Made by a program: the position numbers and the translations under genes
The notes under the pieces: model-generated
The model's input: the letters and a program-made list of their open reading frames with translations, nothing else
What the model was told of the DNA's origin: nothing
Databases searched by the model: none
From: a phage
Direction: 5' to 3' (one strand)
DNA length: 64,000 bases
Sequence record: PZ386973.1
Shown here: one piece after another, positions 7,098 through 44,353 of the stretch
How the letters are laid out: every line of letters starts with the position of its first letter
Position numbering within the stretch: the stretch's first letter is position 1

Positions 7098-7126
7098 TTG
7101 CCAACCTCTATTAAAAATTGTATAAT
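7098..7126 (+). promoter_or_regulatory. sigma70-type promoter (TTGCCA-N17-TATAAT)
   Basis: Hexamers with 17-nt spacer upstream of the phoH-like gene. Confidence 0.5.
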
Positions 7127-7238
7127 CACGCACTCGTGTATGCGATATAAAATGATTGTCTAGTATCACACATCTACCATTAAAAGCAAGCAAATTTTTT
7201 ATTTAAATGCAATATCATAGGCTTATTTAAAATTGTAG

Positions 7239-7267
7239 TTGCTTTTTACTGTATATATTGGTATAAT
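7239..7267 (+). promoter_or_regulatory. sigma70-type promoter (TTGCTT-N17-TATAAT)
   Basis: Second tandem promoter upstream of the phoH-like gene. Confidence 0.5.
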
Positions 7268-7340
7268 ATATTTGTAAGTTGATAAACAAGATCTTTTTGT
7301 TGATCCTCTGTTAGCGAAGTACACTATAGGAGTGTTATTT

Positions 7341-8093
7341 ATGGGAAAAGCACGTCAAAAAAGAGAGAACCGCAATGGTTCAAGAAAGCGTGGCAACAAA
7401 TATGAGAATAACGTAATTCAGGCTGATTTTTCTAATGATTACGCTAACCCAGTTGCTAAATCCCTAGTAGGTAAAAACCGCGAGCAAAAATCATATATCA
7501 ATATGATCAAGAACAACACAGTGACTGTGGGTATCGGTGAGCCAGGTACTGGTAAAACCTTTATTCCGTCTGTTCTTGCAGCTCAGGAACTCGTAGACAT
7601 TCACTCAGATATTGAGCAAGTGATTCTCGTACGTCCTAATGAACCTCTAGGTAAGTCTCTTGGTATGCTTCCTGGTGATCTAGCGGAAAAGCTAGAGCCT
7701 TGGTTGGAGCCAATAGCTGATGGTATGAAATGGGCCATCGGCGACCATGCATATAAAGGATATGTCGAACGTCAGAAAATTAAATTTTTGGCTATCGAAC
7801 ATGCTCGTGGCAGAACTTTCAACAACTCCTATGTAATTGTCGATGAAGCTCAGAATATTTCCGTTGAGGCAATGATTTGTCTCCTAACTCGTGTAGGACA
7901 AGATTGCCGTTTAATTATCTGCGGAGATATAGCTCAGAAAGACATTAAAGGTGACTCAGGTCTAGCACTACTTATGGAAGTCTATGAGAAATACGAAAAT
8001 GCCCCATTCTCAATGATCGAATTGATTGATAACGTTCGTTCTGTTGAGTCTAAAGCATTCTATGATATTTTTAAAGACATGGGGAAGGTGTAA
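7341..8093 (+). CDS. phoH: PhoH-like ATPase
   Basis: Walker A GEPGTGKT and VDEAQN; ATG at 7341 with AGGAG upstream (track start 7332 is a GTG). Confidence 0.8.
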   Translation: MGKARQKRENRNGSRKRGNKYENNVIQADFSNDYANPVAKSLVGKNREQKSYINMIKNNTVTVGIGEPGTGKTFIPSVLAAQELVDIHSDIEQVILVRPNEPLGKSLGMLPGDLAEKLEPWLEPIADGMKWAIGDHAYKGYVERQKIKFLAIEHARGRTFNNSYVIVDEAQNISVEAMICLLTRVGQDCRLIICGDIAQKDIKGDSGLALLMEVYEKYENAPFSMIELIDNVRSVESKAFYDIFKDMGKV

Positions 8094-8094
8094 T

Positions 8095-8316
8095 ATGGGA
8101 AACGTCGTTCATCTGAGCCGTAAAACTAAAATACATCGTACTTCACTGAGTGCTGCTAATATGATTACACGTAGGGAAGGGGAAGAAAGTCCTAAGACAA
8201 CCCTAGCGTGGAAAATTGTAACCTCAAATCCAAATAAACCATTCAATTATAACGAGCTGAGCACCTCCATAGATATTCTATTAAAAGAAGTAGCTAGAGC
8301 TAAAGTAATTGAATAA
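8095..8316 (+). CDS. hypothetical small protein
   Basis: In-frame ATG at 8095 directly after the phoH stop; the longer track ORF overlaps phoH. Confidence 0.4.
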   Translation: MGNVVHLSRKTKIHRTSLSAANMITRREGEESPKTTLAWKIVTSNPNKPFNYNELSTSIDILLKEVARAKVIE

Positions 8317-8458
8317 GCTAAAAAGCTAGACTGACAACACAGAAGGCCTGGGTATGAAAATACTCGGGCCTTTTCTATCAGAAAATTTTATTTGCCTAAT
8401 GACCGATAATAAAGTAGAATATTTCCTAAATCCTGATAACTATAAAAAGGAAAACCAA

Positions 8459-10789
8459 ATGAGCCATCGTATTGAAAAAGTAATTAAACGTGACGGTACT
8501 GTAGAAGACTTTGCTCCTGAAAAAATCAATGGTTGGGCAGAGTATGGTTGCAAAACAGTTGATGTAAGTTGGTCAGCCATTACTATGGCTGCTCAAAAAA
8601 CTCTGCCTAAAGGGGTTGTAGATTCCGACACTCTGATGGACGCATTAATTAAAGCTGCTGAAAGTCTTATCAAAGATAACCCAGCATACGACGTGCCGGC
8701 AAAGGAATTACGTCTTGCGCAAATGCGTAAACGCCTCTATGATTCCTTCGAACCGCCTTCTCTGCGCTTCTTCCATGACCATATGGTTAGCGTAGGTGCA
8801 TGGGAAGACATGAGTGCATGGATTACCGATGAGCAATTTGAAGCTCTGAATCAGGTTATCGACCATGATCGTGATCGTCTTTTTACTAGTGGTGGACTGA
8901 AGCAGTTCTTTGATAAGTATTCCCGTCGTAATATAGCCACTGGTGAAATTTATGAAACCCCGCAATTTGCCTACATGGGTATGGCAATGGCGATGCTATC
9001 TCAACCTAACTGGACAATTCTAGATGCAATCGACCTCTACAACGCAATGTCGCTCCACAAAATCAACGTTCCTACGCCGCCACTGGTTGGTCTGCGCTCT
9101 AGTGACCGCGGATTTGCTAGTTGCTGCCTCGTGGATTCCACTGACACATTGGATTCAATCGACACCGCCGAGCACATCGTCTTCAAAATGGTCGCAGCCA
9201 GAGCGGGAATCGGGTATCATCTTGAAAGCCGATCAATTGCTGATCCGGTGCGAAATGGGGCATTCCCGCATTCCGGAAAACTGCCATATTATCGACACAT
9301 TGATCGATCAGTAAAAGCGAACACTCAGCAAACCCGTGGTGGTTCTGCTACTGTATCTTACCCGTACTTCGATCCTGAAATCATTCAGTTGATGCAGGTT
9401 AAGCAACAACGTGCTACAGACGAGAATAAAATCGACAAGATGGATTATTCTCTGAGCTTCAATAATCTTTTGTTAAAACGTTATCTGAAAAACGAAGATA
9501 TTACGCTAATGTCGTACTTCTATGCCCCAGAAGTTCATGAAGCGTTTTATAGTGATGACGAGGCTAAATTTGAAGAAATCTATGTGGCAGCGGAGAAACG
9601 TGTGGCATCTCTTACAAAGATCGACCACGAAGGAAAAACAGTTCCAGCAGCTCCTAAAGTCTCTGCAAAAGAAATCCTAGATACCTGGCTGCGTATCCGA
9701 ATGGAAACAGGACGTATGTATGCTCATCACATTGGGGAATCTAATCGTCATGGTAACTTCCTTGATCCGATCCGTATGACAAACCTTTGTGTTGAAATTA
9801 CTCAGCCTACACGCCCGTTCCACCATATCACAGAACTGTATAAGACAAAAGAGCAGCTTGATCAAATGAAGCCAGAGGATATTGGTGAAGTATCTCTGTG
9901 TAACTTAGGCGGTGTTGTACTTGGACGCATGGAATCTCTGGCTGAGTGGGAAAAGACTTGCTATATTCTTCTGAAATTCGTTGATACCATCATTGAAATT
10001 CAGGATTATCCATTCCCAACTATGGAATATACGGCTAAGAAACGTCGTAACGTTGGTATTGGTCTGATGAACGCAGCAGGTGCAATGGCAGCGGAAGGTT
10101 TGGCTTATGAAGGCGTTGAAGCGCGTAACTGGATTCATCGTGAAGCTGAAAAACTGTCCTACTTCCTGCATAAAGCCTCTGTACGCCTAGCCAAAGAGCA
10201 AGGTGCATGTGAATGGTTTGACCGTACTAAACCGTCTAAAGGAATACTGGTAATCGACACGTACAAGAAAACTGTTGATGAACTGGTATCAGTAGGTCTA
10301 GAAATGGATTGGGAATCTCTACGTGCAGATATTCTGAAATATGGTATGCGTAACTCTGTTCTGACTGCTCAGATGCCTGGAGAAAGTTCTTCTGTACTGT
10401 TGGGTGTTACTAACTCTATCGAACCGCCTCGTAAGATTGTATCTATCAAGGGTAGTGCGGTGAATAAAGTAATTGCAATTGCTCCAGGTGCAACCGATTG
10501 GGAAACGTTAATGAGCTATAAACTGGCTTATGATGTAGATCGTATCGAGTGGATCAAATGGGTAGCAACTATGCAGAAATTCTTCAGTCAGTCTATCAGT
10601 ACGAATATGTACTATGACTACACCAAGTTTGAGAATGAAATCATTCCTGGCCCAGTAGTAGTTCGTGATTTCATGACTGCTGTTAAGTATGGGTGGAAAA
10701 CTTGGTATTATGCTAACTTCAACACTGCAAATGGTGGAGGTGCTGGAGAAGAAGCAGCCGGTTGTGCATCCGGTGGTTGTACTATTTAA
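8459..10789 (+). CDS. nrdA: ribonucleotide reductase large subunit (class Ia)
   Basis: ATP-cone-like N-terminus (VIKRDGTVEDF), CNLG active-site region, C-terminal Cys pair; ATG 8459 with AAGGA upstream. Confidence 0.88.
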   Translation: MSHRIEKVIKRDGTVEDFAPEKINGWAEYGCKTVDVSWSAITMAAQKTLPKGVVDSDTLMDALIKAAESLIKDNPAYDVPAKELRLAQMRKRLYDSFEPPSLRFFHDHMVSVGAWEDMSAWITDEQFEALNQVIDHDRDRLFTSGGLKQFFDKYSRRNIATGEIYETPQFAYMGMAMAMLSQPNWTILDAIDLYNAMSLHKINVPTPPLVGLRSSDRGFASCCLVDSTDTLDSIDTAEHIVFKMVAARAGIGYHLESRSIADPVRNGAFPHSGKLPYYRHIDRSVKANTQQTRGGSATVSYPYFDPEIIQLMQVKQQRATDENKIDKMDYSLSFNNLLLKRYLKNEDITLMSYFYAPEVHEAFYSDDEAKFEEIYVAAEKRVASLTKIDHEGKTVPAAPKVSAKEILDTWLRIRMETGRMYAHHIGESNRHGNFLDPIRMTNLCVEITQPTRPFHHITELYKTKEQLDQMKPEDIGEVSLCNLGGVVLGRMESLAEWEKTCYILLKFVDTIIEIQDYPFPTMEYTAKKRRNVGIGLMNAAGAMAAEGLAYEGVEARNWIHREAEKLSYFLHKASVRLAKEQGACEWFDRTKPSKGILVIDTYKKTVDELVSVGLEMDWESLRADILKYGMRNSVLTAQMPGESSSVLLGVTNSIEPPRKIVSIKGSAVNKVIAIAPGATDWETLMSYKLAYDVDRIEWIKWVATMQKFFSQSISTNMYYDYTKFENEIIPGPVVVRDFMTAVKYGWKTWYYANFNTANGGGAGEEAAGCASGGCTI

Positions 10790-10796: not shown

Positions 10797-10826
10797 AAGG
10801 AGATCTTCGGGTCTCCTTTTTCTTTG
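10797..10826 (+). terminator. rho-independent terminator
   Basis: Hairpin AGGAGATCTTCGGGTCTCCT followed by a T-run. Confidence 0.6.
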
Positions 10827-10835
10827 AAATTTTAC

Positions 10836-10864
10836 TTGCTAATCTCTACCAGATTTGCTATAAT
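10836..10864 (+). promoter_or_regulatory. early promoter module (TTGCTA-N17-TATAAT)
   Basis: Member of the repeated promoter family upstream of nrdB. Confidence 0.55.
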
Positions 10865-10895
10865 ATTCCTGAAATAGTGAGAAAGAGGAAAATCA

Positions 10896-12571: not shown

Positions 12572-13410
12572 TGCAACAATACTTAAAAATTCTAACAGAT
12601 GTAATTTTATTGGGTGAACCACGTAACGATCGTACGGGAACAGGCACAGTTTCAATTTTCGATTCCTATGCTAAGTTCGACCTACGTGAAGGATTCCCTG
12701 CCGTAACCACTAAACGTCTAGCTTGGAAATCGGTAGTTGGGGAACTCTTATGGTTTTTATCTGGATCTACAAATCTTCATGATCTACGTGTATTCACATT
12801 TGGTCGTGACGAAGGACAGTGGACCATCTGGACTCCAAATTATGAAGACCAAGCTATAAGTATGGGGTATGATAAGGGTAATCTAGGACCAGTATATGGT
12901 AAACAGTGGCGTAACTTTGGTGGACGAGATCAGATTCTAGAACTTATTGAGGGACTCAAGAATAATCCTCATGGCCGCAGACATCTAGTTTCTGCATGGA
13001 ATGTTGCTGAACTTGATAAAATGGCATTACCACCCTGTCACTACGGCTTCCAGTGCTATGTAAGTAACGATGGATACCTAGATCTTAAATGGACACAACG
13101 TTCTGTAGATTGTTTCCTCGGTTTACCTTTCAATATTGCTAGTTATGCTTTATTAACGCATATAATAGCAAAACTGACAGGATTAAAACCTCGTTATCTT
13201 ATCTTTAGTGGCGGTGATACTCATATCTATAATGACCACATGGAACAGGTAGAAGAACAGGTAAAACGTAAACCTCGTCCTTTACCGACTCTAGTAATGC
13301 CAGAATTTGTAGATCTTTACGACTTACTAGAAAATAATACGGCAGCTTGGTCATTCCATTTAGAGGGGTACGATCCTCACCCAGCTCTTAAAGCTAAGAT
13401 GTCTTCTTAA
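12571..13410 (+). CDS. thyA: thymidylate synthase
   Basis: RTGTGT, LPPCH active-site Cys, DxHIY motifs. Confidence 0.9.
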   Translation: MQQYLKILTDVILLGEPRNDRTGTGTVSIFDSYAKFDLREGFPAVTTKRLAWKSVVGELLWFLSGSTNLHDLRVFTFGRDEGQWTIWTPNYEDQAISMGYDKGNLGPVYGKQWRNFGGRDQILELIEGLKNNPHGRRHLVSAWNVAELDKMALPPCHYGFQCYVSNDGYLDLKWTQRSVDCFLGLPFNIASYALLTHIIAKLTGLKPRYLIFSGGDTHIYNDHMEQVEEQVKRKPRPLPTLVMPEFVDLYDLLENNTAAWSFHLEGYDPHPALKAKMSS

Positions 13411-13415
13411 CTCAA

Positions 13416-13440
13416 ATAGCCCTTCGGGGCTATTATATCT
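13416..13440 (+). terminator. terminator hairpin
   Basis: ATAGCCCTTCGGGGCTAT with TTCG tetraloop, then a U-rich stretch. Confidence 0.5.
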
Positions 13441-13449
13441 AAATTTCAT

Positions 13450-13478
13450 TTGCTTACTGAGTGAAATTTAGATATAAT
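13450..13478 (+). promoter_or_regulatory. early promoter module
   Basis: TTGCTT-N17-TATAAT followed by TTTATAAATCGGAGA. Confidence 0.5.
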
Positions 13479-13502
13479 ATATTTTATAAATCGGAGACAA
13501 CT

Positions 13503-13757
13503 ATGGGACTCTTTAAAAAGAAAGTTTATTTAACACAAAGTCAAGAACGTAGGTTCTTAGCTCTGTCTCAGTATTATCACTTACCTTTCGATCATTTTGT
13601 AGAACGGGCGTTAGAACAATTCCTAGAAAAGGAATTAAAGGCAATTAGACCTGAACCGCCAAGAGTACCAAATGATGCACAGAGAGGTCATCCATGTATT
13701 CCTCCTATGCCGCCAATTCCTCCAGCGACTAGGGTAATTATAGAAGGCGAAAACTAA
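13503..13757 (+). CDS. hypothetical protein (Pro-rich C-terminus)
   Basis: ATG 13503 after GGAGA; the track start 13461 lies inside the promoter. Confidence 0.45.
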   Translation: MGLFKKKVYLTQSQERRFLALSQYYHLPFDHFVERALEQFLEKELKAIRPEPPRVPNDAQRGHPCIPPMPPIPPATRVIIEGEN

Positions 13758-14502: not shown

Positions 14503-14522
14503 TAAATAAATTAAAAATTCTC

Positions 14523-14551
14523 TTGCTTAAAGCTCTCTAATTTAGTATAAT
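14523..14551 (+). promoter_or_regulatory. early promoter module
   Basis: TTGCTT-N17-TATAAT. Confidence 0.55.
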
Positions 14552-14578
14552 ATTCGTATTGAAAGTGAGGAGGGCTTT

Positions 14579-14863: not shown

Positions 14864-15309
14864 AGATTACTGAATTTAAAGGTACTTATAGTTTCTTATC
14901 TAACTTTTATTTATCACCAATTACTTTCGAATATCTAAATGAGATATGGCATGCTGATACTGTAGAACATGCCTTTCAGGCTATGAAATCCGACCAAAAA
15001 GATGATGTAGCTCATGTACTGCGCTCCCTAAGTGCAGGAGTTGCCAAACGTAGGGGACGTAAATTAACTCTGCGCTCTGACTGGGATAAGGTAAAAGATG
15101 ATGTAATGCTAGAGCTTTTACGGTTAAAGTTTGCAATCCCTGATTTGAGAGACAAACTGTTAGCAACAAAAAATGCAACTTTGGTCGAAGGAAATACCTG
15201 GGGAGATACATATTGGGGTGTTTGCCGAGGCATCGGGGATAATACTTTAGGAGTTCTTTTGATGCAGGTAAGGTCTGAAATTAAAAGAAGCTTACAGTTA
15301 ATAAATTAA
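14860..15309 (+). CDS. NADAR-domain (YbiA-like) protein
   Basis: YSFLSNFY...HAEHAFQAMK...GNTWGDTYWG pattern. Confidence 0.6.
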   Translation: MKITEFKGTYSFLSNFYLSPITFEYLNEIWHADTVEHAFQAMKSDQKDDVAHVLRSLSAGVAKRRGRKLTLRSDWDKVKDDVMLELLRLKFAIPDLRDKLLATKNATLVEGNTWGDTYWGVCRGIGDNTLGVLLMQVRSEIKRSLQLIN

Positions 15310-15317
15310 AAATTCAT

Positions 15318-15346
15318 TTGCTAAACGCTTCAAATTCTCGTATAAT
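15318..15346 (+). promoter_or_regulatory. early promoter module
   Basis: AAAAATTCATTTGCTA...TATAAT...CATAAATTGAT. Confidence 0.6.
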
Positions 15347-15384
15347 ATACTTCATAAATTGATAAACAAAAAGGAAAATAAATA

Positions 15385-16220: not shown

Positions 16221-16457
16221 ATGCGTAATTTTGTAGCAAAGAATGATTTTAACCGTGCTAGCACCCATAAGTCAGCTAGGGATTATACACGACTTTCTAG
16301 TCATGAGGTAATGGATACCTGTTATGAAGAGCTGGAAGGTAGCTGGAATGAATGGCCCGACTTCTCTATGGAAGAGAACTGGGATGTCAGTGAGGATATG
16401 CTTCCTGGTTTTAAAGACCCCAAGAAGTGGGAGTCTATTAAAGAGACAGCTCTTTAA
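16221..16457 (+). CDS. hypothetical acidic protein
   Basis: Track ORF. Confidence 0.45.
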   Translation: MRNFVAKNDFNRASTHKSARDYTRLSSHEVMDTCYEELEGSWNEWPDFSMEENWDVSEDMLPGFKDPKKWESIKETAL

Positions 16458-16485: not shown

Positions 16486-17187
16486 ATGAAAGTAAAACCA
16501 TTTGGTATGCTAGATATTGAATCTCTAGGAACCCCTGGAGATTGTGGTACTACCCATATCGCAATGCCTTCATTCGCTTTTGTGGCTATGCATGGAATTG
16601 ATAAAGACCCTGATCTAGTATTTGTTACTTTAGATGTACAAGATCAACTTAATTCTGGTGCCAAAGTTACAGCATCTACTCTAGCATTCTGGATGGATCA
16701 GGCTAAACATAGCCCGTCTGCTATTCACATTATGGAAGCTATGAAGGAACGTAATCCAAAACTGATTGCCTTCCAAAATGGTAAACATCATTGCACTAAT
16801 AAATTAGGCTCAAACTATGCTGCCTTCTCTATGGCTCAAAATATTATGGAGTTGGCTCTAGGCGAAAATGCTTTGTATTATGGCAATGGCCCAGAGTTTG
16901 ATATGACTATCTACTCTGCAAACACGTTCCATGCTGGAACCAATGAAGAGGTAGTTCCGTGGAAATTCTGGAATTTGGGTAATGTTCGATCTCTTCGTAA
17001 TCTCTGGATGCAAGCTGGATACAGTTATAAAGCTCTAGAGACAGAAGGTATTAGCTGGGCAATAGCTAAAATGGAGAAGATGGACACTATTCGTTATGGG
17101 ATCTATCCGGTTAAGCATGATCCTGCATTTGATGCCTTAGTTGAAAGCTATTGTGTTGCAGCTATGATCGAAAAAATGAAAATTTGA
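16486..17187 (+). CDS. DEDDh-type 3'-5' exonuclease-like protein
   Basis: MLDIESLG (DxE), internal EFD and C-terminal HDPAFDA. Confidence 0.55.
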   Translation: MKVKPFGMLDIESLGTPGDCGTTHIAMPSFAFVAMHGIDKDPDLVFVTLDVQDQLNSGAKVTASTLAFWMDQAKHSPSAIHIMEAMKERNPKLIAFQNGKHHCTNKLGSNYAAFSMAQNIMELALGENALYYGNGPEFDMTIYSANTFHAGTNEEVVPWKFWNLGNVRSLRNLWMQAGYSYKALETEGISWAIAKMEKMDTIRYGIYPVKHDPAFDALVESYCVAAMIEKMKI

Positions 17188-17188
17188 T

Positions 17189-17217
17189 TTGCCTCCGGCT
17201 CCAAAATTCTGTATAAT
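17189..17217 (+). promoter_or_regulatory. early promoter module
   Basis: TTGCCT-N17-TATAAT. Confidence 0.5.
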
Positions 17218-17257
17218 ATATTCATAAATTTGAGAAAACAATAAAAGGAAAACAAAT

Positions 17258-18132: not shown

Positions 18133-18515
18133 TGATTTGAAAGCTAGTAAATCGGTAGACGAAAGCCCAAGCATCTTACCTCGCAGCAGCGGTTGAAATA
18201 CGAGGTTAAATAAGACCGCTGACCATACTATAAAGTATAATCTATTGGAGATTATGTTTATTACACCAGCCTTTTAAGCTGACACGTAAGAACAAAGCGT
18301 CGTTGATATTACCGACACAACTTCAAAGATCAACATTTAAGTATGAAAGCTGAAAAGTTTAAAGAACTCAAACTTCTAAACTTCTAAAGCTAAAAGATGC
18401 AAAGTATTCGTTGATGATTCAAACCCTAGATCAAAGGTACATGGCTCATAAGATATGGCCTGTGGCGCCTCTAGGCTGTTTATCGGTTTACTAGTTTCAC
18501 AATTTAAAAATGTAT

Positions 18516-18544
18516 TTGCTAATTTATTAAGTTATCTGTATAAT
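18516..18544 (+). promoter_or_regulatory. early promoter module
   Basis: TTGCTA-N17-TATAAT. Confidence 0.55.
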
Positions 18545-18574
18545 ATATTTTTAAATTGATGAAACGAGGCTATT

Positions 18575-19396: not shown

Positions 19397-19408
19397 GGAG
19401 TAAAAAGA

Positions 19409-19858
19409 ATGAAGGCAGCTTTGCTTTTAGTAGCTGCCCTTACCTTTAGCTTTAGTAGTCAGGCATCGCACGATGCAAAAGAAATAGATTGCATTGCTAA
19501 AAATATCTATTTCGAAAGTCGTGGTGAGGGCATAAAGGGAATGACGGCGATTGCACACGTTACTAAAAACCGTGTAAACTCCGGTAAATTCCCAGATTCC
19601 TACTGTAAAGTAGTATATCAGTCTAACCAGTTCTCTTGGGTATCTAAGAGACCAAAAGTTGATAAAACTGATGAGGCTTGGCAAACCGCCAAGAATTTAG
19701 CTAGAGTGATATACTACGTTGATTTACCACAAGATCCTACACATGGAGCTTTATACTTCCATAGTGGTAAAGATAAACCGTACTGGACAAAGAAGTTTAA
19801 GAAAACAACTAAGATTAAGGGACATACATTCTATAAACCTGTTGCCACTAAAACTTAA
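19409..19858 (+). CDS. secreted SleB-like cell-wall hydrolase
   Basis: Signal peptide MKAALLLVAALTFSFSSQA; NIYFESRGEG...VTKNRV...QFSW hydrolase pattern. Confidence 0.65.
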   Translation: MKAALLLVAALTFSFSSQASHDAKEIDCIAKNIYFESRGEGIKGMTAIAHVTKNRVNSGKFPDSYCKVVYQSNQFSWVSKRPKVDKTDEAWQTAKNLARVIYYVDLPQDPTHGALYFHSGKDKPYWTKKFKKTTKIKGHTFYKPVATKT

Positions 19859-19866
19859 AAATTTAC

Positions 19867-19895
19867 TTGCTTAAATACTTAAATTTCCGTATAAT
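19867..19895 (+). promoter_or_regulatory. early promoter module
   Basis: TTGCTT-N17-TATAAT. Confidence 0.55.
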
Positions 19896-19926
19896 ACTTC
19901 CATAAATTAATGAGAGGAAGCGAAAT

Positions 19927-20097: not shown

Positions 20098-20531
20098 TGG
20101 GTACGAACATGATTCGTGTACTACGAGAGTTGATTGAAGATGCTCGTAAACGTGGAGATACTGTATCGGTTAAGCACCTAAGTACGATTCTAGGTGACTT
20201 GCAACGTATTAACAAGGATTGCATAACTAAGCTGGAATTTACTAACTGGCTGAAATCCCAGTTCAAGGCAATTGAGAATACACAGACTGCTGCTGAAAAA
20301 GCAAATGTCGAATATATTCCTGATGATGAATATCTAGATCTTTTAGCAGGTTTAGAGTATGAATACGCTTTGCAACAGCTGACTGAAACCGAAATTCGTA
20401 AATACTTTGCAGAACTAGTTAAATTAAACCCAGGTATTACCAAAGCCCTACTAATGAAAACTATTAAGGCAGAGTTCCCAGGGCGTTATGATGGTAAAAC
20501 AACTGCTTTGATTGCTAGTGAATTTTTCTAA
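20097..20531 (+). CDS. hypothetical protein
   Basis: Track ORF. Confidence 0.5.
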   Translation: MGTNMIRVLRELIEDARKRGDTVSVKHLSTILGDLQRINKDCITKLEFTNWLKSQFKAIENTQTAAEKANVEYIPDDEYLDLLAGLEYEYALQQLTETEIRKYFAELVKLNPGITKALLMKTIKAEFPGRYDGKTTALIASEFF

Positions 20532-20539
20532 AAATTCAT

Positions 20540-20568
20540 TTGCTAAATGCTTATAAATTCTGTATAAT
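20540..20568 (+). promoter_or_regulatory. early promoter module
   Basis: Reads into the 900-nt non-coding RNA region. Confidence 0.55.
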
Positions 20569-20801
20569 ATATTCATAAATTAGAGAACAGCGAGCCGATT
20601 ACGCTGAGTGCAGAATCCCAACCGGAGCGCATTGAATAGAGTCGGTGGGTTAGTTGTAAAACTAGTACACAGGGGGCGGCAATCCCGGTTAGTGGCTAGA
20701 ACGTGTAAAATGGGGCGTCTGAAACCTCTCCCTTAAACTCTTCTCTAATCTATAAATAGTGGGGTGTGGAAATCACTTATGTAGTAACACTGCCGTCCTA
20801 A

Positions 20802-24272: not shown

Positions 24273-24388
24273 GGGGTCTTTAAAAATTGCCCCCGGATTT
24301 TTAGTGGGGTCACAAATTTTGGTCCTCACCACTTATATGCTACCCTTAAGTGCCCTATGATTTTCCTCTAAAAAGTTAAAAAATTTGA

Positions 24389-24417
24389 TTGCTTGAATGC
24401 TAAATTCTCTGTATAAT
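24389..24417 (+). promoter_or_regulatory. early promoter module
   Basis: TTGCTT-N17-TATAAT. Confidence 0.55.
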
Positions 24418-24447
24418 GTATCTATAAATTTGAGAGAGGAACCAAAT

Positions 24448-26130: not shown

Positions 26131-26160
26131 CTCCTCCAAACAGAATTTTTAAAAATGTAC

Positions 26161-26190
26161 TTGCTTTTTGTCTTAAATTTCTGATATAAT
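26161..26190 (+). promoter_or_regulatory. early promoter module
   Basis: TTGCTT-N18-TATAAT. Confidence 0.5.
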
Positions 26191-26220
26191 AGTCATATAA
26201 ATTGATGAAGGAGTTAACTA

Positions 26221-26496: not shown

Positions 26497-26532
26497 CTAA
26501 TACAGCACTGAGCAAGTTCTTCAAAATCTGAC

Positions 26533-26561
26533 TTGCTCAGTGCCCTAAAACTTGATATAAT
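26533..26561 (+). promoter_or_regulatory. early promoter module
   Basis: TTGCTC-N17-TATAAT inside a hairpin-forming region. Confidence 0.5.
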
Positions 26562-26624
26562 AGTTATCTAATTTGGAAACATATTTAAAAGTGTTTAAAC
26601 AAGTATTTGAATGCTTCTAAATAT

Positions 26625-26978: not shown

Positions 26979-27251
26979 ATGCATCCTGAAAACTTCTTTA
27001 TTTACTGCGCGGATAAGTCGCTGAAACGTAGAATTAACAAAGTCTATCATTATCGTGCTAGTCAACAGCCTTATATATACGCTTTTGACGGTGATCACAT
27101 TCCACTAGAACAATTATCCTGTGATTACATGATATTGAAGAACTTTGACGAGACAAAGATCTCAAGCGTTCATAATCGACAGAATCCATTAACGTGGAAA
27201 TATAAGAAGAAAAAGAAAGGCATCAAATTCTTAAAAAATGTAGTTGCTTAG
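26979..27251 (+). CDS. hypothetical protein
   Basis: ATG with AAGGAG 6 nt upstream. Confidence 0.4.
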   Translation: MHPENFFIYCADKSLKRRINKVYHYRASQQPYIYAFDGDHIPLEQLSCDYMILKNFDETKISSVHNRQNPLTWKYKKKKKGIKFLKNVVA

Positions 27252-27272
27252 TTTCCAAAAGTTCTGTATAAT
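27244..27272 (+). promoter_or_regulatory. early promoter module
   Basis: TTGCTT-N17-TATAAT. Confidence 0.55.
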
Positions 27273-27320
27273 AATTACATAAATTGAACTGGAGAAGCAA
27301 CATGACAGAACAAGATAAAT

Positions 27321-28884: not shown

Positions 28885-29010
28885 AGTTTACTTATTGAGT
28901 AGGTTCCGATAGATCGGCGGGTCTATTCTGGCATTTAAGAGAGGTCTCGCAAACTTCTTTGTCAGCCGTGGGGTTCATAGCCTCCAGGTGGCCTACACAA
29001 TAAGTAAATT
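28885..29010 (+). ncRNA. candidate structured RNA closed by a 12-13 bp long-range stem
   Basis: AGTTTACTTATTG (28885-28897) pairs with CAATAAGTAAATT (28998-29010). Confidence 0.3.
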
Positions 29011-29024
29011 TATTAAAAATTCAT

Positions 29025-29053
29025 TTGCTATTCTGCTTAATTATCTGTATAAT
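29025..29053 (+). promoter_or_regulatory. early promoter module
   Basis: AAAAATTCATTTGCTA...TATAAT. Confidence 0.55.
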
Positions 29054-29085
29054 ATATTTTATAAAGTGAAGAGAAGGAAAGCAAA

Positions 29086-29675: not shown

Positions 29676-29696
29676 CCAATTTCAAGAAAAACGCAG

Positions 29697-29725
29697 TTGC
29701 TTGATGCTTAATTTCTTGTTATAAT
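29697..29725 (+). promoter_or_regulatory. early promoter module
   Basis: TTGCTT-N17-TATAAT followed by a GATGAGGATTTCTCCTCATC hairpin. Confidence 0.55.
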
Positions 29726-29963
29726 ATTTATATAAATTGATGAGGATTTCTCCTCATCATAGTTCACTAAGGTATTAGCTCGACCTAGGACTGGCTGCCA
29801 AAAAGCACGATCCCTACGATTCGGGAGAAGTTCTAGATTAGTCCACTAGATTCAGCGGCAACTGAATAGTGTATCGGGTTTGCGAGATGACGTAGTTCCT
29901 TCCGCTCGAAGCGAAGGTGCTGTAGTTACGCCGAGCTAATAGCCTTAGTAAATTAAAGAATTT

Positions 29964-32084: not shown

Positions 32085-32102
32085 CCAAATTTAAAAATTC
32101 AT

Positions 32103-32131
32103 TTGCCTTCTCTCTTATTTATTGTTATAAT
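32103..32131 (+). promoter_or_regulatory. early promoter module
   Basis: TTGCCT-N17-TATAAT. Confidence 0.55.
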
Positions 32132-32161
32132 ATTTATATAAATTAATGAGAGGGAAACCAA

Positions 32162-34159: not shown

Positions 34160-34176
34160 ATTCTGAAATAATTCAT

Positions 34177-34205
34177 TTGCTAAACCTCTCTTTTCTTGTT
34201 ATAAT
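34177..34205 (+). promoter_or_regulatory. early promoter module
   Basis: TTGCTA-N17-TATAAT. Confidence 0.55.
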
Positions 34206-34235
34206 ATGTTTATAAATTGATGAGAGAGGTTTGAA

Positions 34236-36250: not shown

Positions 36251-36288
36251 AAGCCCAGCCTGCACTTTTGCGACTGGGCTATTTTTAT
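36251..36288 (+). terminator. rho-independent terminator
   Basis: AGCCCAG...CTGGGCT stem followed by ATTTTT. Confidence 0.55.
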
Positions 36289-36301
36289 AATAAAATTTTA
36301 G

Positions 36302-36330
36302 TTGCTTAGATGCCCAAACTTTTGTATAAT
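36302..36330 (+). promoter_or_regulatory. early promoter module
   Basis: TTGCTT-N17-TATAAT. Confidence 0.55.
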
Positions 36331-36361
36331 ATGTTTATAGATTGAGGCAAGAGGATTAAAT

Positions 36362-37060: not shown

Positions 37061-37466
37061 GTGGTATATCCTGGGAGCAGGTCTAGCGATAGGCATCGGA
37101 TTCGGTGCTTATCACTTAGTAGATAAAGTGGAGACTTTAGCCGGAGATCTTGCGGTAGCTACTAAAAAGATCTCTTCTCTAGAAACTTCCCTTAATAAGG
37201 TGAAAGCTGAGAGCGAACTTCGTGAGACTAGAATGAATCAGTATTTCACAATGAATAATATTTCGCAAGCAGATCTAGACAAAAAGATTAAGCAGTTAGA
37301 TAAAGCGCTTAGTCGCCAAGATATTATAGCTGCAAAGCCTGGATTGGTAACATTAATTGCTAAAAAGCAGAGTAAAGAGTTCGAGGAAAGATTAGCGTGT
37401 TTAACTGGAAACTTGGAATACTGCTCGCAGCCGCAATCACAATCACAGGCTGTGCAGAAGAAATAA
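37017..37466 (+). CDS. hypothetical membrane-anchored coiled-coil protein
   Basis: Track ORF; start uncertain. Confidence 0.4.
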   Translation: MDLIQKLLSGIWHGKWYILGAGLAIGIGFGAYHLVDKVETLAGDLAVATKKISSLETSLNKVKAESELRETRMNQYFTMNNISQADLDKKIKQLDKALSRQDIIAAKPGLVTLIAKKQSKEFEERLACLTGNLEYCSQPQSQSQAVQKK

Positions 37467-40414: not shown

Positions 40415-40831
40415 ATGTTTGCAGAACTATTCACTATGATGCTGCTAGGTATCTGGAAAATAAGTCTAGTAGTATTCATTTTAATGATAGTCTTTACTAT
40501 CATTGCATTAACTACCCGAAATAGCTTATTAATAAAGGTTATTCACGGACTAGAGTATATAATTATGGGTTCATTCGGCGTTTGTAAATGCAATTGCCAT
40601 AGAGATACGAAATATTGTTGGTTATGGATGGAACTAGAGAATCCTATATCCATAGCTTTGGCTGTTTCATTCGGCATGATTCTTATGGCCCTTACTCTAG
40701 CATTAATACCTTTGATGTTAGCTGGGGGAGTTACAGCGTATTTCACCCTTTTCTCCCCGATACTTATGTACTCAATTTACCCAATAACTATGTATCTAGT
40801 TAGGAAAAGATTTATACATGCAGTAGATTAA
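40415..40831 (+). CDS. polytopic membrane protein
   Basis: Track ORF; several hydrophobic helices. Confidence 0.45.
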   Translation: MFAELFTMMLLGIWKISLVVFILMIVFTIIALTTRNSLLIKVIHGLEYIIMGSFGVCKCNCHRDTKYCWLWMELENPISIALAVSFGMILMALTLALIPLMLAGGVTAYFTLFSPILMYSIYPITMYLVRKRFIHAVD

Positions 40832-40844
40832 GATAAAAAAGTAG

Positions 40845-40873
40845 TTGACTTTTAGCCCTAGTTATTATATAAT
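40845..40873 (+). promoter_or_regulatory. early promoter module (TTGACT-N17-TATAAT)
   Basis: Followed by CATAAATTAGTTAAGAGAGG. Confidence 0.5.
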
Positions 40874-40906
40874 ATATACATAAATTAGTTAAGAGAGGTA
40901 TATATT

Positions 40907-41627: not shown

Positions 41628-41660
41628 AAGCCTGATCTTAGCTGATCAGGCTTTTATTTT
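41628..41660 (+). terminator. rho-independent terminator
   Basis: AAGCCTGATC...GATCAGGCTT stem followed by a T-run. Confidence 0.6.
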
Positions 41661-41662
41661 AC

Positions 41663-41691
41663 TTGCTTTTTGCTAAAAATTTTGGTATAAT
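41663..41691 (+). promoter_or_regulatory. early promoter module
   Basis: TTGCTT-N17-TATAAT. Confidence 0.55.
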
Positions 41692-41718
41692 ATTTATATA
41701 AATTGATTGGAGGATTAA

Positions 41719-42830: not shown

Positions 42831-43117
42831 TGAATGATAGAATGAAAGAAGTACAAGAAGAATTACGAGCAATGCGTATTGATGCCCTTCGTTGGAGGGC
42901 ATTAGTTAATGCTTTCGTCAAAGGAGATACCGGAGTAATATATTCTGGAATAGCAGTCAATTTTTGTTTTAATTCTCCTGCTGAAATAGAGATAGAAACA
43001 AGGCTTACTACCTACCTTAGTGAGGTAGACCTTAAGGAAGGAGAGACTTCCGAGGAGTTTAAAACTAGAGTATTAACTACCTGGGTTGATAATTTAATAC
43101 AAAAAAGGAGTAAGTGA
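42830..43117 (+). CDS. hypothetical protein
   Basis: Track ORF. Confidence 0.45.
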   Translation: MNDRMKEVQEELRAMRIDALRWRALVNAFVKGDTGVIYSGIAVNFCFNSPAEIEIETRLTTYLSEVDLKEGETSEEFKTRVLTTWVDNLIQKRSK

Positions 43118-43707
43118 TGAAGGTTAAATTCTGGTCAGACTTGCACTTAGACCACCCTGGAGCACTACGTTTCCGTCCGTGGTTTAAGAACATGAAAGAG
43201 CACGATGAGTATATTCTAGATACTTTATCCAAGCATATTGGTAAACGAACAAAACTTATTTTGCTAGGAGATATTGCAGTAGGTCGTGAAGGTCTGGCCA
43301 AATTAAAGTCGGTTATCCACAATGTCCCTAATCAACTCATTATGGGTAATCATGATGCGGAGCGTCAAGGACTGAGTATCAGGGACTTAGCGGAAGTTTA
43401 TGACGATATTCAAGCTCTAGGCAAACAGACTGGAGGTGGCAAAAAGTTTTGGCTATCTCACTGCCCTTTGCACCCTAATGAACTTCGTGGCAAACTAAAT
43501 ATTCACGGACATGTACATACTACTTCTTTACGTGATCCACGTTATATTAATGTCTCATTTGAAATGAGTAGAACTCCAATTCCACTAGAGGATATTGTGT
43601 CTGGTAAGTTTACTAGTTACGATAGAGTGGTTAATTGTACTACCGGCGAGGTATTACAAATAGGAGAAGACGTAGCTGCTGTATTGCGTGGCGATATAAA
43701 TGTCTAA
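43114..43707 (+). CDS. calcineurin-like metallophosphoesterase
   Basis: SDLHLDHP, LLGDIAVG, GNHD and HGHVH motifs. Confidence 0.6.
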   Translation: MMKVKFWSDLHLDHPGALRFRPWFKNMKEHDEYILDTLSKHIGKRTKLILLGDIAVGREGLAKLKSVIHNVPNQLIMGNHDAERQGLSIRDLAEVYDDIQALGKQTGGGKKFWLSHCPLHPNELRGKLNIHGHVHTTSLRDPRYINVSFEMSRTPIPLEDIVSGKFTSYDRVVNCTTGEVLQIGEDVAAVLRGDINV

Positions 43708-43815
43708 GTATATAGCTGAGGTTATTATTAAACGAATCATACAGGCGATAGCAATACTTATAATCATTTGTATTGCTATTGGCACAGGATTAGGCATTTT
43801 AATTGAAAGTTTTAT

Positions 43816-43844
43816 TTGCTAAAATGCTTAAGTTTCTGTATAAT
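43816..43844 (+). promoter_or_regulatory. early promoter module
   Basis: TTGCTA-N17-TATAAT. Confidence 0.55.
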
Positions 43845-43874
43845 TACTTTATAAATTGATGAGAAGGAATCAAA

Positions 43875-44306
43875 ATGAACAAAGTTGATAAAGCTCTAGT
43901 TTTCGCAGCAGCAGATAAGTTTGAACAAGTTAAGGCAACTTTCCAAACCTTGTTCCAGTCTTACGTTCAAGATAAGTCTAATCCTATTTCTGAACGCTTA
44001 ATGGTTTGGGAATGTCATGCTTGCAATGCCCTGCTAATTGCGGATTATCGTAGTGATATAGATAAAGATCTCTGTGAAATCCTCATCCCTGAGGAAGCAG
44101 AACGTTATCAGCTAATCTCTTTTCAAGATTTGGCAGAGCATATTATTCCTGATGATCTTTGGGACAAGTATTACGGAGACCCTGAGGATGAGGGGATGAC
44201 TCCAGAAGCATGTATTGAGTTAATCTGTAAGGATCATCCTGAAATTGCAGAAAAATTTGAAAAAGTTTTTGCTTCTGAGTTCTCTGGTGTTGTTAACGAT
44301 TGGTAA
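43875..44306 (+). CDS. hypothetical acidic protein
   Basis: Track ORF. Confidence 0.45.
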   Translation: MNKVDKALVFAAADKFEQVKATFQTLFQSYVQDKSNPISERLMVWECHACNALLIADYRSDIDKDLCEILIPEEAERYQLISFQDLAEHIIPDDLWDKYYGDPEDEGMTPEACIELICKDHPEIAEKFEKVFASEFSGVVNDW

Positions 44307-44324
44307 GTAATTAAAAAAATTCAG

Positions 44325-44353
44325 TTGCTTTAAGCCTTAAAATTCTGTATAAT
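44325..44353 (+). promoter_or_regulatory. early promoter module
   Basis: TTGCTT-N17-TATAAT. Confidence 0.55.

What the first reader, a model, noticed from the sequence alone, without database searches (positions are those of the whole stretch)
7098..44353. About 25 copies of one conserved early-promoter module
A near-identical roughly 60-bp unit (AAAAATTCATTTGCTA, 17-nt spacer, TATAAT, then CATAAATTGATGAGAGG) precedes most early transcription units. One copy has its -35 element inside the 3' end of the Toprim gene (24944-24972). This is consistent with the very strong T5-type early promoters as recalled.
Basis: partly seen in the sequence, partly recalled or inferred. Interest (0 to 1): 0.4.

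Follow-up and report, generated by a model that had tools for sequence, protein, structure and literature searches.

The report
Classical T5-type early promoters, repeated
The repeated ~70-bp unit is real, but it is the long-known family of strong host-polymerase "early" promoters of phage T5 and its relatives, each fused to a short leader and ribosome-binding site, so the finding is correct but ordinary.

Summary
The window comes from a T5-like phage (Demerecviridae), and its + strand corresponds to the T5 minus strand. There are 25 co-oriented copies of one promoter module on the + strand between 7098 and 44353. Four more lie outside that range: 47000 (+), and 1922, 5071 and 61695 (-). The module spans about -53 to +17:
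- an A-tract at -45 to -41
- a -35 element TTGCTW
- a 17-nt spacer with AAATTT at -21 to -16
- a perfect TATAAT
- an A/T-rich discriminator
- +1 ATAAATT
- a GAGAGG Shine-Dalgarno, with ATG near +25

TTGCT-N18-TATAAT occurs 22 times against 0.42 expected by chance. An unbiased repeat search ranks the module as the top repeat family.

Copies are not near-identical; mean pairwise identity is 56%. Nearly every copy is the syntenic ortholog of a promoter already annotated in the T5 GenBank record (P-H207, P-D/E33, P16-17, P15a/b/c, P14a/b, P13a/b, P11, P-F30). The copy overlapping the Toprim gene is T5 P15b, which drives tRNA-Ser.

In the whole T5 genome the module is confined to the early region plus the llp promoter. 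It is absent from the pre-early terminal repeats and from the late genes. A PeSL-like recombination-joint role was tested and not supported.

Novelty: already known.

The parts
1868..1937 (-). Module copy, -50..+20 footprint. -35 TTGCAG at 1922-1917, -10 at 1899-1894, predicted +1 at 1887. No Shine-Dalgarno/ATG within 150 nt.
   Evidence: PWM score 53. Identical 65/65 to the T5 promoter at 58999-59073.
5017..5086 (-). Module copy abutting an upstream terminator hairpin (5106-5082). ATG at 5014 (93 aa).
   Evidence: PWM 58. Terminator scan. T5 promoter 55708-55782, 55/65.
7083..7152 (+). Partial copy. A-tract, TTGCCA and TATAAT (7098-7126) are present, but the discriminator is GC-rich and there is no ATAAATT. 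It stands in tandem with the next copy.
   Evidence: It falls below the PWM threshold. T5 promoter 53776-53850, 48/65.
7224..7293 (+). Module copy (7239-7267) ahead of the phoH-like operon.
   Evidence: PWM 57. 65/65 to the T5 promoter at 53638-53712.
8377..8446 (+). Weak copy (TTGCCT / TAGAAT, 8392-8420) just after a terminator hairpin (8341-8374). Followed by the nrdA ATG at 8459.
   Evidence: PWM 35. Hairpin -22.6 kcal/mol, z -5.4. Not annotated as a promoter in T5.
10821..10890 (+). Module copy (10836-10864) fused to terminator 10797-10818. Followed by the nrdB ATG at 10896.
   Evidence: T5 promoter 50061-50135 by position.
13435..13504 (+). Module copy (13450-13478) after hairpin 13415-13434. 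ATG at 13503.
   Evidence: PWM 47. Hairpin -12.2 kcal/mol. Positional ortholog of the T5 promoter at 46937-47011.
14508..14577 (+). Module copy (14523-14551). ATG at 14579.
   Evidence: PWM 42. 62/65 to the T5 promoter at 46337-46411.
15303..15372 (+). Module copy (15318-15346), ortholog of T5 P-H207. ATG at 15385.
   Evidence: 65/65 to T5 45985-46059, 'promoter P-H 207'.
17174..17243 (+). Module copy (17189-17217). The A-tract lies in the 3' end of ORF 16486-17187. ATG at 17258.
   Evidence: PWM 62. 61/65 to the T5 promoter at 44393-44467.
18501..18570 (+). Module copy (18516-18544). ATG at 18575.
   Evidence: PWM 62. 64/65 to the T5 promoter at 43067-43141.
19852..19921 (+). Module copy (19867-19895), ortholog of T5 P-D/E33. 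ATG at 19927.
   Evidence: 61/65.
20525..20594 (+). Module copy (20540-20568), ortholog of T5 P16-17. It drives an ~800-nt stretch with no convincing ORF (RNAX-like) and then tRNA-Arg at 21381. No Shine-Dalgarno.
   Evidence: PWM 68. 58/65.
24374..24443 (+). Module copy (24389-24417), ortholog of T5 P15a. Followed by the Toprim gene ATG at 24448.
   Evidence: 60/65. P15A was seen as an early primer-extension product in T5 (PMC7472727).
24929..24998 (+). Module copy (24944-24972), ortholog of T5 P15b. The A-tract, -35 element and spacer lie inside the Toprim ORF (stop codon 24964-24966). tRNA-Ser starts at about +9 (24988). No Shine-Dalgarno.
   Evidence: T5 P15b (37247-37321) overlaps T5.076 in the same way.
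26147..26216 (+). Module copy with an 18-nt spacer (-35 at 26161-26166, -10 at 26185-26190), ortholog of T5 P15c. ATG at 26221.
   Evidence: Variable-spacer PWM 60. 60/65.
26518..26587 (+). Module copy (26533-26561), ortholog of T5 P14a. It drives the tRNA-Tyr/Glu/Trp/Phe cluster, starting at +57. No Shine-Dalgarno.
   Evidence: 60/65.
27229..27298 (+). Module copy (27244-27272), ortholog of T5 P14b. The -35 element overlaps the stop codon of ORF 26964-27251. tRNA-Cys follows at 27321.
   Evidence: 64/65..
29010..29079 (+). Module copy (29025-29053), ortholog of T5 P13a. ATG at 29086, then tRNA-Pro and tRNA-Met.
   Evidence: 59/65..
29682..29751 (+). Module copy (29697-29725), ortholog of T5 P13b. 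The transcript begins with a hairpin (29738-29759) that pairs the Shine-Dalgarno-like GAGGA. It leads into an RNA2H-like stable RNA and tRNA-Ala.
   Evidence: 60/65. Hairpin -12.9 kcal/mol. T5 RNA2H annotation.
32088..32157 (+). Module copy (32103-32131), ortholog of T5 P11, starting right after tRNA-Thr. ATG at 32162.
   Evidence: 62/65..
34162..34231 (+). Module copy (34177-34205). ATG at 34236.
   Evidence: 62/65 to the T5 promoter at 26722-26796.
36287..36356 (+). Module copy (36302-36330) after hairpin 36252-36280. ATG at 36362, the start of the long operon running to about 40.8 kb.
   Evidence: 62/65 to the T5 promoter at 24443-24517. Hairpin -15.3 kcal/mol.
40830..40899 (+). Module copy with -35 TTGACT (40845-40873). 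ATG at 40907.
   Evidence: 65/65 to the T5 promoter at 19368-19442.
41648..41717 (+). Module copy (41663-41691) fused to terminator 41628-41653. ATG at 41719.
   Evidence: 60/65 to the T5 promoter at 18550-18624.
43801..43870 (+). Module copy (43816-43844), positional ortholog of T5 P-F30. ATG at 43875.
   Evidence: PWM 61. T5 16807 site and P-F30 annotation.
44310..44379 (+). Best-scoring copy (44325-44353). The Shine-Dalgarno GAGAGG is followed by ATG at 44386. The in-motif ATG at 44368 precedes the Shine-Dalgarno.
   Evidence: PWM 70. 65/65 to the T5 promoter at 16245-16319.
46985..47054 (+). GTG at 47060.
   Evidence: PWM 39. 63/65 to the T5 promoter at 13212-13286.
61641..61710 (-). It drives a lipoprotein gene (61635-61369) divergent from the receptor-binding-protein gene, the Llp position in T5.
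   Evidence: PWM 61. Pfam LPAM_1. T5 has a module at 110369 before lpp/llp.
45796..46257 (+). Ortholog of gpT5.026, the RNA-polymerase-binding protein proposed to down-tune this promoter class. It is a trans-acting partner, not a copy of the module.
   Evidence: 97% identical to T5.026. Function from PMC7472727.

Best explanation
These are the early-class sigma-70 promoters of a T5-like phage. Each is packaged with its initial transcribed sequence and, for protein genes, a ribosome-binding site.

Proposed mechanism. Unmodified host RNA polymerase holoenzyme binds a footprint of about 70 bp.
- The alpha C-terminal domains contact the A-tract at -45 to -41 (a proximal UP-element-like block).
- Sigma region 4 contacts TTGCTW.
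- The optimal 17-bp A/T-rich spacer sets the geometry.
- Sigma region 2 contacts a perfect TATAAT.
- The discriminator is A/T-rich.
- Transcription starts at the A seven (sometimes eight) bases after TATAAT.
- The conserved purine-rich start ATAAATTGA... favours promoter escape.
- In mRNA-type copies GAGAGG at +11..+17 and ATG near +25 start translation.
- In tRNA or stable-RNA copies the Shine-Dalgarno is missing but ATAAATT is kept.

Many copies spaced 0.5-5 kb apart, some fused to the preceding terminator, cut the early region into short, strongly expressed units. These become available once the second-step DNA has entered the cell.

What is shown and what is inferred. Shown here: the architecture, excess over chance, strand and position relative to genes, synteny with annotated T5 promoters, restriction to the early class, and conservation in a diverged relative. 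Inferred from T5 literature: polymerase binding, the exact +1, strength and timing.
For: Excess over chance and unbiased detection.

The information profile rises above background only from about -53 to +17, the size of an RNA polymerase footprint. Peaks are at the A-tract, TTGC, TATAAT and +1..+7.

All copies point toward the downstream gene or RNA. The start codon lies mostly at index 24-25 from the predicted +1.

Natural dissection. Copies lacking a nearby ORF keep +1..+8 (6.8 bits in both classes). They lose the Shine-Dalgarno (86% against 32%) yet stay 75% purine at +9..+18.

Ortholog footprint across 26 relatives: -10 element 99.6%, +1..+8 98.9% and -35 element 96.7% identity, against 93.6% overall.

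One-to-one synteny with promoters annotated in T5, including P-H207 and the P13-P16 series.

Whole T5 genome: 31 PWM hits above 25. Thirty lie in the early region at 13.2-75.5 kb and one is the llp promoter. None lies in either terminal repeat or in the late block.

Other genomes: 11-16 hits per full-length (~20 kb) locus, 3-16 over all 26 T5-like loci, every one on the gene strand; zero in about 400 kb of 23 non-T5-like loci. Serratia phage Slocum (45% GC, DNA barely alignable) has 13 copies in 25 kb, all on the gene strand.

Literature: the N25 +1 position, the early-class ATATT discriminator, the UP element, and P15A as an early start in vivo (PMC7472727). N25 anatomy and the role of the initial transcribed sequence in escape (PMC12464699).
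Against: There are no transcript 5' ends or expression data for this phage, so activity and timing are by homology.

The generic sigma-70 consensus scan finds no more sites than chance (49 against 57, 52 against 51, 70 against 68). Support therefore rests on the specific module, not on resemblance to TTGACA/TATAAT.

The 'ATATT' discriminator is exact in only about 6 of 28 copies here.

Two listed copies (7098, 8392) are marginal.

The uniformly non-consensus -35 element (TTGCT) and the conserved spacer are not explained by simple maximisation of sigma-70 binding.
Confidence: 0.93

Rival explanations
1. The modules are mobile regulatory cassettes or recombination joints, like the PeSL promoter/stem-loop motifs of T4-type phages. 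Their main evolutionary role would be to mediate insertion, deletion and swapping of gene cassettes by recombination between copies.
For: The copies are dispersed direct repeats of about 56% identity. Six of them are fused to an upstream terminator hairpin, a PeSL-like composite. Several alignment breaks against T5 fall at module edges, for example 13486, 15308, 18577, 20586 and 26584. The PeSL precedent is in PMC2839356 and PMC4122927.
Against: This was tested on 26 relatives over 20.5 kb. Eleven of 97 unique breakpoints fall in module footprints against 6.7 expected (p = 0.07). Junctions with a module are no more often breakpoints than junctions without one (Fisher p = 0.81; excluding tRNA junctions p = 0.32). 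No module-to-module deletion signature was seen. At 56% identity the copies are poor substrates for homologous recombination.
Confidence: 0.07
2. Besides being promoters, the copies carry a class-specific operator. The positions conserved beyond what sigma-70 needs would be read by a phage factor or by phage-modified polymerase to switch the whole early class off together. Those positions are TTGCT rather than TTGACA, C/T at -24/-23, AAATTT at -21..-16, A at -6, T at -3, and ATAAATT at +1..+7.
For: The same non-consensus features recur in all ~29 copies, in T5 and in Serratia phage Slocum. +1..+8 is as conserved among orthologs as the -10 element and is kept in non-coding copies. The module is absent from pre-early and late promoters. 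gpT5.026 weakens polymerase contact with -5/+2, and its loss raises early transcripts (PMC7472727). The window encodes a 97% identical ortholog.
Against: The gpT5.026 effects in vitro are two-fold or less, and the mutant still switches. The discriminator itself is not better conserved than background among orthologs (93.7% against 93.6%). Conservation of the initial transcribed sequence is already explained by promoter escape (PMC12464699). No DNA-binding factor for these positions is known.
Confidence: 0.25
3. The similarity is a by-product of A/T-rich intergenic composition plus generic promoter hexamers, not a distinct family.
For: The genome is 61% A+T. Generic sigma-70-like matches are as frequent as in shuffled sequence.
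Against: Twenty-two matches to TTGCT-N18-TATAAT against 0.42 expected. PWM scores of 35-70 against a shuffle maximum of 2.8. Zero hits in about 400 kb of the 23 non-T5-like loci, including the 33% GC locus L029. Strict co-orientation with genes.
Confidence: 0.01

Closest known systems
Bacteriophage T5 early promoters (P-N25, P-N26, P-K28a, P-H207, P-D/E33, P13-P16 series). Sources: Gentz & Bujard 1985 J Bacteriol 164:70 (recalled from memory and from reference lists; not held in the library), the T5 GenBank annotation NC_005859, and Klimuk et al. 2020 (PMC7472727).
   Same: Same architecture position by position. Same genes downstream and same order along the genome. Several copies are identical over 65 of 65 bases, including the P-H207 ortholog.
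   Different: Nothing essential. Differences are those expected at about 90% genome identity. One weak extra site before nrdA (8392) is not annotated in T5. A few downstream genes are inserted or replaced.
T4-type PeSL (promoter-early stem-loop) cassettes (Arbiol et al. 2010, PMC2839356; Comeau et al. 2014, PMC4122927).
   Same: Dispersed, conserved early sigma-70 promoter motifs, sometimes fused to a terminator stem-loop, in the variable small-ORF regions of a large virulent phage.
   Different: Here only 6 of 29 copies have the stem-loop. Indel or replacement breakpoints are not significantly enriched at the modules.
UP-element promoters of E. coli such as rrnB P1 (Estrem et al. 1999, cited in PMC12464699).
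   Same: An A-tract centred near -43 upstream of the -35 element, in the position of the proximal UP subsite.
   Different: The distal subsite (-57..-47) carries little information here. The discriminator is A/T-rich rather than GC-rich, so no stringent-control-type regulation is implied.
T4 early promoters (from general knowledge; not checked here).
   Same: A phage-specific, extended consensus for host sigma-70 polymerase used at dozens of sites to out-compete host promoters immediately after DNA entry.
   Different: Different consensus outside TATAAT. T4 boosts its early promoters by ADP-ribosylating the polymerase alpha subunit; no such modification is known for T5.

Membership tests
T5-type early sigma-70 promoters | -35 element TTGCTW and -10 element TATAAT separated by 17 (rarely 18) bp | tested here: met
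   28 of 29 copies have a 17-bp spacer and one has 18. TATAAT is perfect in 28 of 29. TTGC is present in 26 of 29, the other three being TTGACT, TTGACG and (with TTGC) TTGCAG variants.
T5-type early sigma-70 promoters | A-rich block around -43 (UP-like) | tested here: met
   A at -45..-42 in 85-93% of window copies, at 0.9-1.2 bits per position.
T5-type early sigma-70 promoters | Early-class discriminator 'ATATT' (Klimuk et al. 2020) | tested here: inconclusive
   A at -6 (93%) and T at -3 (89%) are conserved, but the exact ATATT occurs in only about 6 of 28 copies. The consensus is A-T-w-T-T-y.
T5-type early sigma-70 promoters | Conserved transcribed region (+1 ATAAATT, then a purine-rich run) as in P-N25 | tested here: met
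   +2..+7 at 67-89% consensus. Kept in copies that drive tRNAs or stable RNAs. The N25 sequence is shown.
T5-type early sigma-70 promoters | Orthology and synteny with mapped T5 promoters | tested here: met
   25 of 29 copies match the syntenic annotated T5 promoter at 45-65 of 65 positions. The remaining copies are positional orthologs or lie before llp.
T5-type early sigma-70 promoters | Restricted to the early transcription class | tested here: met
   In T5, 30 hits lie in the early region and one before llp. None lies in the terminal repeats or the late block. In the window there are no hits between 47.1 and 61.6 kb (the terminal-repeat copy) apart from one half-site.
T5-type early sigma-70 promoters | Initiation by unmodified host sigma-70 holoenzyme at the predicted +1, with high strength | not testable with these tools
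   Known for T5 N25, H207 and others from the literature. No data exist for this phage.
PeSL-like mobile regulatory cassettes | Composite of a terminator stem-loop plus an early promoter | tested here: not met
   Only 6 of 29 copies have an adjacent upstream hairpin.
PeSL-like mobile regulatory cassettes | Indels and replacements between close relatives bounded by the motif | tested here: not met
   11 of 97 breakpoints fall in footprints against 6.7 expected (p = 0.07). Junction tests give p = 0.81 and 0.32. Power is limited: one 20-kb region, and events are not phylogenetically independent.

The most novel reading that the evidence does not exclude
The features shared by every copy but not required by sigma-70 form a class code. 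These are the TTGCT -35 element, the -24/-16 spacer pattern and, above all, ATAAATT at +1..+7. ATAAATT is as conserved among orthologs as the -10 element and survives in non-coding copies and in a Serratia phage. The code would be read after initiation or by phage-modified polymerase. One possibility is gpT5.026-dependent destabilisation. Another is a sigma-dependent promoter-proximal pause at the -10-like TAAATT. Either would give coordinated shut-off or tuning of all ~30 early units.
Probability: 0.2. Interest if true: 0.4.

Novelty: already known. Interest (0 to 1): 0.12.

Why it matters
The finding matters little as a discovery. T5 early promoters have been cloned, sequenced and used in expression vectors since the 1980s, and they are annotated in the T5 reference genome.

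Its practical value is for annotation. The module is a precise marker of early transcription units and true start codons in T5-like genomes, which are usually deposited without promoters. It corrects ORF starts, for example at nrdA and where an ATG sits inside the motif. It also separates early units from pre-early and late ones.

The family-wide conservation of the +1..+7 block is a modest lead for the still unsolved early-to-late switch of T5.

Tried and rejected
1. Recombination-joint (PeSL-like) role. I chained blastn alignments of window 14448-34966 against 26 IMG/VR T5-like loci, giving 95 unique indel or replacement events and 97 breakpoint clusters. There was no significant enrichment at modules.

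2. Generic sigma-70 scan. It gave no excess over shuffles, so it is uninformative.

3. Rfam at gathering thresholds. It found only tRNAs, and no RNA family overlaps the modules.

4. Distant relative L029 (Toprim 47% identical, 33% GC). It has no module and no alternative promoter family was evident, so it did not help to date the module.

5. Collection-wide pattern scan of IMG/VR. It is dominated by multi-hit 100-128 kb contigs, but single hits elsewhere are at the level expected by chance, so no clean host or taxon range could be drawn.

6. The classical papers are not held in the library: Gentz & Bujard 1985, Deuschle 1986 and Rommens 1983. Statements about them rest on memory and on reference lists in PMC7472727 and PMC12464699.

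7. Site 43251-43266 matched the upstream 16-mer. It has no -10 element and lies inside an ORF, so it is not a copy.

8. My initial recollection that P-N25 is pre-early was wrong. In the T5 record it lies at 63043-63117, before the D2 gene in the early region.


Full report
**What the window is.** Megablast of 12-25 kb pieces finds about 650 T5-like phage records. The best are Salmonella and Escherichia phages at 94-96% identity. Alignment to the T5 reference NC_005859 is collinear at 84-97% identity, with the window + strand equal to the T5 minus strand.
- Window 1-7 kb is the divergent nrdD-side unit.
- 7-49.7 kb is the leftward early region, including 22 tRNA genes.
- About 50.05-60.49 kb is a single copy of the terminal repeat, which carries the pre-early genes.
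- 60.5-64 kb is the llp and receptor-binding-protein end of the genome.

- TTGCT-N18-TATAAT occurs 22 times against 0.42 expected from dinucleotide shuffles.
- A weight matrix built from the copies and iterated gives 29 sites scoring 18-70, while the best score in 20 shuffled windows is 2.8. Allowing 16-18 nt spacers also gives 29 and rescues one 18-nt-spacer copy at 26161.
- An unbiased repeat finder puts the unit first among all direct-repeat families (18 copies of 61 nt at 60% identity or more). tRNA 3' halves come second.
- Four more lie outside that range: 47000 (+), and 1922, 5071 and 61695 (-).
- 'Near-identical' is too strong. Mean pairwise identity over -50..+20 is 56% (39-73%), against 25% for random 70-mers.
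- The copy at 7098 conforms only upstream of +1, and 8392 is weak.

**Anatomy.** Information content exceeds background only from about -53 to +17, the size of an RNA polymerase footprint. Its elements are:
- A at -45..-42 (85-93%), followed by T-T-t-A
- TTGC (93-100%), then T and T/A
- a spacer with C/T at -24/-23 and AAATTT at -21..-16
- TATAAT (96-100%)
- A at -6 and T at -3
- A-T-A-A-A-T-T at +1..+7
- a purine run

With +1 set seven bases after TATAAT, as established for T5 N25 (PMC7472727), a Shine-Dalgarno (GAGG, GGAG or AGGA) follows in 86% of copies that have an ORF. The start codon sits mostly 24-25 nt after +1.

Copies that drive tRNAs or stable RNAs form a natural dissection. In the window these are 20540, 24944, 26533 and 29697. 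They keep +1..+8 with the same information (6.8 bits) and remain 75% purine at +9..+18. They lose the Shine-Dalgarno (32%). So ATAAATT belongs to the promoter or the initial transcribed sequence, and GAGAGG to translation.

Six copies sit directly after an intrinsic-terminator hairpin whose T-run merges into the upstream A/T block: 5071 (-), 8392, 10836, 13450, 36302 and 41663.

**The Toprim copy.** The ORF with a proper Shine-Dalgarno runs 24448-24966. It matches Pfam Toprim_2 above the cutoff. Its stop codon is 24964-24966, so the A-tract, the -35 element and the whole spacer are coding, and TATAAT starts on the next base. tRNA-Ser begins about nine bases after the predicted start. In T5 this is annotated as promoter P15b, overlapping gene T5.076 and preceding tRNA-Ser3. 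The copy at 27244 likewise has its -35 element over the end of an ORF.

**Comparison with T5.** The T5 record carries 75-bp 'promoter' features throughout the early region, many with the classical names. Gapless comparison of each window copy (-45..+20) with those features gives the syntenic T5 promoter as best hit in 25 of 29 cases, at 45-65 of 65 identities:
- 15318 = P-H207 (65/65)
- 19867 = P-D/E33
- 20540 = P16-17
- 24389 = P15a
- 24944 = P15b
- 26161 = P15c
- 26533 = P14a
- 27244 = P14b
- 29025 = P13a
- 29697 = P13b
- 32103 = P11

13450 and 43816 are positional orthologs of the T5 promoter at 46937-47011 and of P-F30. 61695 (-) corresponds to the T5 module before llp. P-N25, P-N26 and P-K28a, which lie beyond this window, have the same architecture.

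**Class specificity.** I scanned the complete T5 genome with the window-derived matrix. Of 31 hits above 25, 30 lie between 13.2 and 75.5 kb (the early region) and one lies at 110369, before the early-expressed lipoprotein gene. None lies in either 10.2-kb terminal repeat, and none lies in the 28-kb late block, where P-G25 scores 13.6. Promoters annotated in T5 for other units use TTGACA-type -35 elements and lack ATAAATT: P-H22, P12, P-K28b, nrdD and holin. Their window counterparts (7046-, 24272-, 55630+, 49453+) do the same.

**Conservation elsewhere.** Twenty-six IMG/VR T5-like loci carry 11-16 hits per full-length (~20 kb) locus (3-16 overall, the lowest in loci cut short by a contig end). 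Every hit is on the gene strand. Twenty-three non-T5-like loci (about 400 kb) carry none. Against those 26 relatives, orthologous identity is 99.6% for the -10 element, 98.9% for +1..+8 and 96.7% for the -35 element. The overall figure is 93.6%, and spacer and discriminator sit at background. Serratia phage Slocum is a Demerecviridae member with 45% GC whose DNA aligns to only about 2% of the query. It nevertheless has 13 copies in 25 kb, all on the gene strand, with the same A-tract, TTGC, 17 bp, TATAAT and ATAAATTGA. The module is therefore maintained by selection across the family and is not merely inherited with nearly identical DNA.

**Mechanism.** The best-supported reading is the classical one: strong early promoters for unmodified host sigma-70 polymerase. 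They have an upstream alpha-CTD contact, a perfect -10 element and an optimal spacer. Their initial transcribed sequence favours escape (PMC12464699). A standardised short leader and ribosome-binding site follow. Regulation of the class probably involves gpT5.026, an RNA-polymerase-binding protein that weakens contacts at -5/+2 and whose loss raises early transcripts (PMC7472727). The window encodes a 97% identical ortholog at 45796-46257. Binding, start sites, strength and timing are inferred from T5, not shown for this phage.

**Rival tested.** Alignment breaks against T5 often fall at module edges, and T4-type phages have PeSL promoter/stem-loop cassettes that bound shuffled modules (PMC2839356, PMC4122927). 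I therefore tested whether indel and replacement breakpoints concentrate at modules.
- Over 14448-34966 against 26 relatives there were 95 unique events and 97 breakpoint clusters.
- Eleven clusters fall in module footprints against 6.7 expected (p = 0.07).
- Gene junctions with a module are not more often breakpoints than those without (p = 0.81; p = 0.32 without tRNA junctions).
- No module-to-module deletion scars were seen.

The idea is not supported, although the test has limited power.

**Verdict.** The finding is accurate and correctly interpreted, but it re-describes a textbook promoter family that is already annotated in the reference genome. What remains unexplained is why the non-consensus TTGCT and the +1..+7 block are held so uniformly. 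A class-specific regulatory code is possible but untested.

Noticed in passing
window 8341-8459: The longest nrdA ORF starts at ATG 8354, which lies inside a strong terminator hairpin (8341-8374, -22.6 kcal/mol, z -5.4). A weak promoter module follows the hairpin. The real start is probably ATG 8459, preceded by AAAGGAAAA. The 811-aa T5 nrdA annotation would then be about 35 codons too long.
   Followed up: partly
window 50052-60486: The window contains one copy of the T5-type terminal repeat (pre-early genes: A1-like 57044-58798, dmp-like 59628-60362). On one side it is flanked by left-unique DNA and on the other by the llp/receptor-binding-protein end. The source sequence is therefore an assembly with the terminal repeat collapsed. 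The physical genome ends would lie near 50052 and 60486.
   Followed up: partly
window 20575-21380: About 800 nt downstream of module 20540 have no convincing ORF; T5 annotates 'RNAX, stable RNA of unknown function' here. Rfam finds a tRNA-like element at 20792-20878 (42 bits) that ARAGORN did not call. The module plus the first ~60 transcribed bases are 91% identical in the distant Proteus phage 2, where almost nothing else aligns.
   Followed up: no
window 25088-25162: Rfam tRNA match (40 bits) directly after tRNA-Ser, missed by ARAGORN. It is in the position of T5 tRNA-Ile2(CAU).
   Followed up: no
window 29738-29759: The transcript from module 29697 (P13b ortholog) begins with a hairpin (-12.9 kcal/mol) that pairs the Shine-Dalgarno-like GAGGA. 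It lies at the 5' end of the RNA2H-like stable RNA. Relatives show variants that keep the pairing.
   Followed up: partly
window 44368 (and other copies with TGATGAGAGG or TAATGAGAGG): The conserved leader motif contains an ATG upstream of the Shine-Dalgarno. Mechanical ORF calling takes it as the start (44368..44637), whereas the start placed by the Shine-Dalgarno is 44386. This is a likely source of mis-annotated starts in T5-like genomes.
   Followed up: no
window 54923-54895 (-): A half-module lies in the pre-early terminal-repeat region. It has TATAAT, ATACAT and ATAAATTAGTGAG but a poor -35 element (TAGCCA) and an 18-nt spacer (score 25). It is the only module-like site in that region.
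   Followed up: no
window 49910-50712: Clustered direct repeats lie at the inner boundary of the terminal repeat: 63-nt pairs at 49910 and 50288, and three 62-nt units at 50535-50712. This corresponds to the region that T5 annotates as the injection stop signal.
   Followed up: no
window 61369-63508: The receptor-binding protein (61721-63508, 595 aa, no Pfam hit) is only 31% identical to T5 Pb5, suggesting a different host receptor. The divergent 88-aa lipoprotein (61635-61369), in the position of T5 Llp, is driven by an early-type module.
   Followed up: partly
IMG/VR T5-like locus (one of L003-L028), ortholog of window 17189: One relative carries a tandem duplication of the -10 element and start region (…ATAAATTCTGTATAATATATTCATAAATTTGAG…). 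This creates two overlapping start modules behind one -35 element.
   Followed up: no
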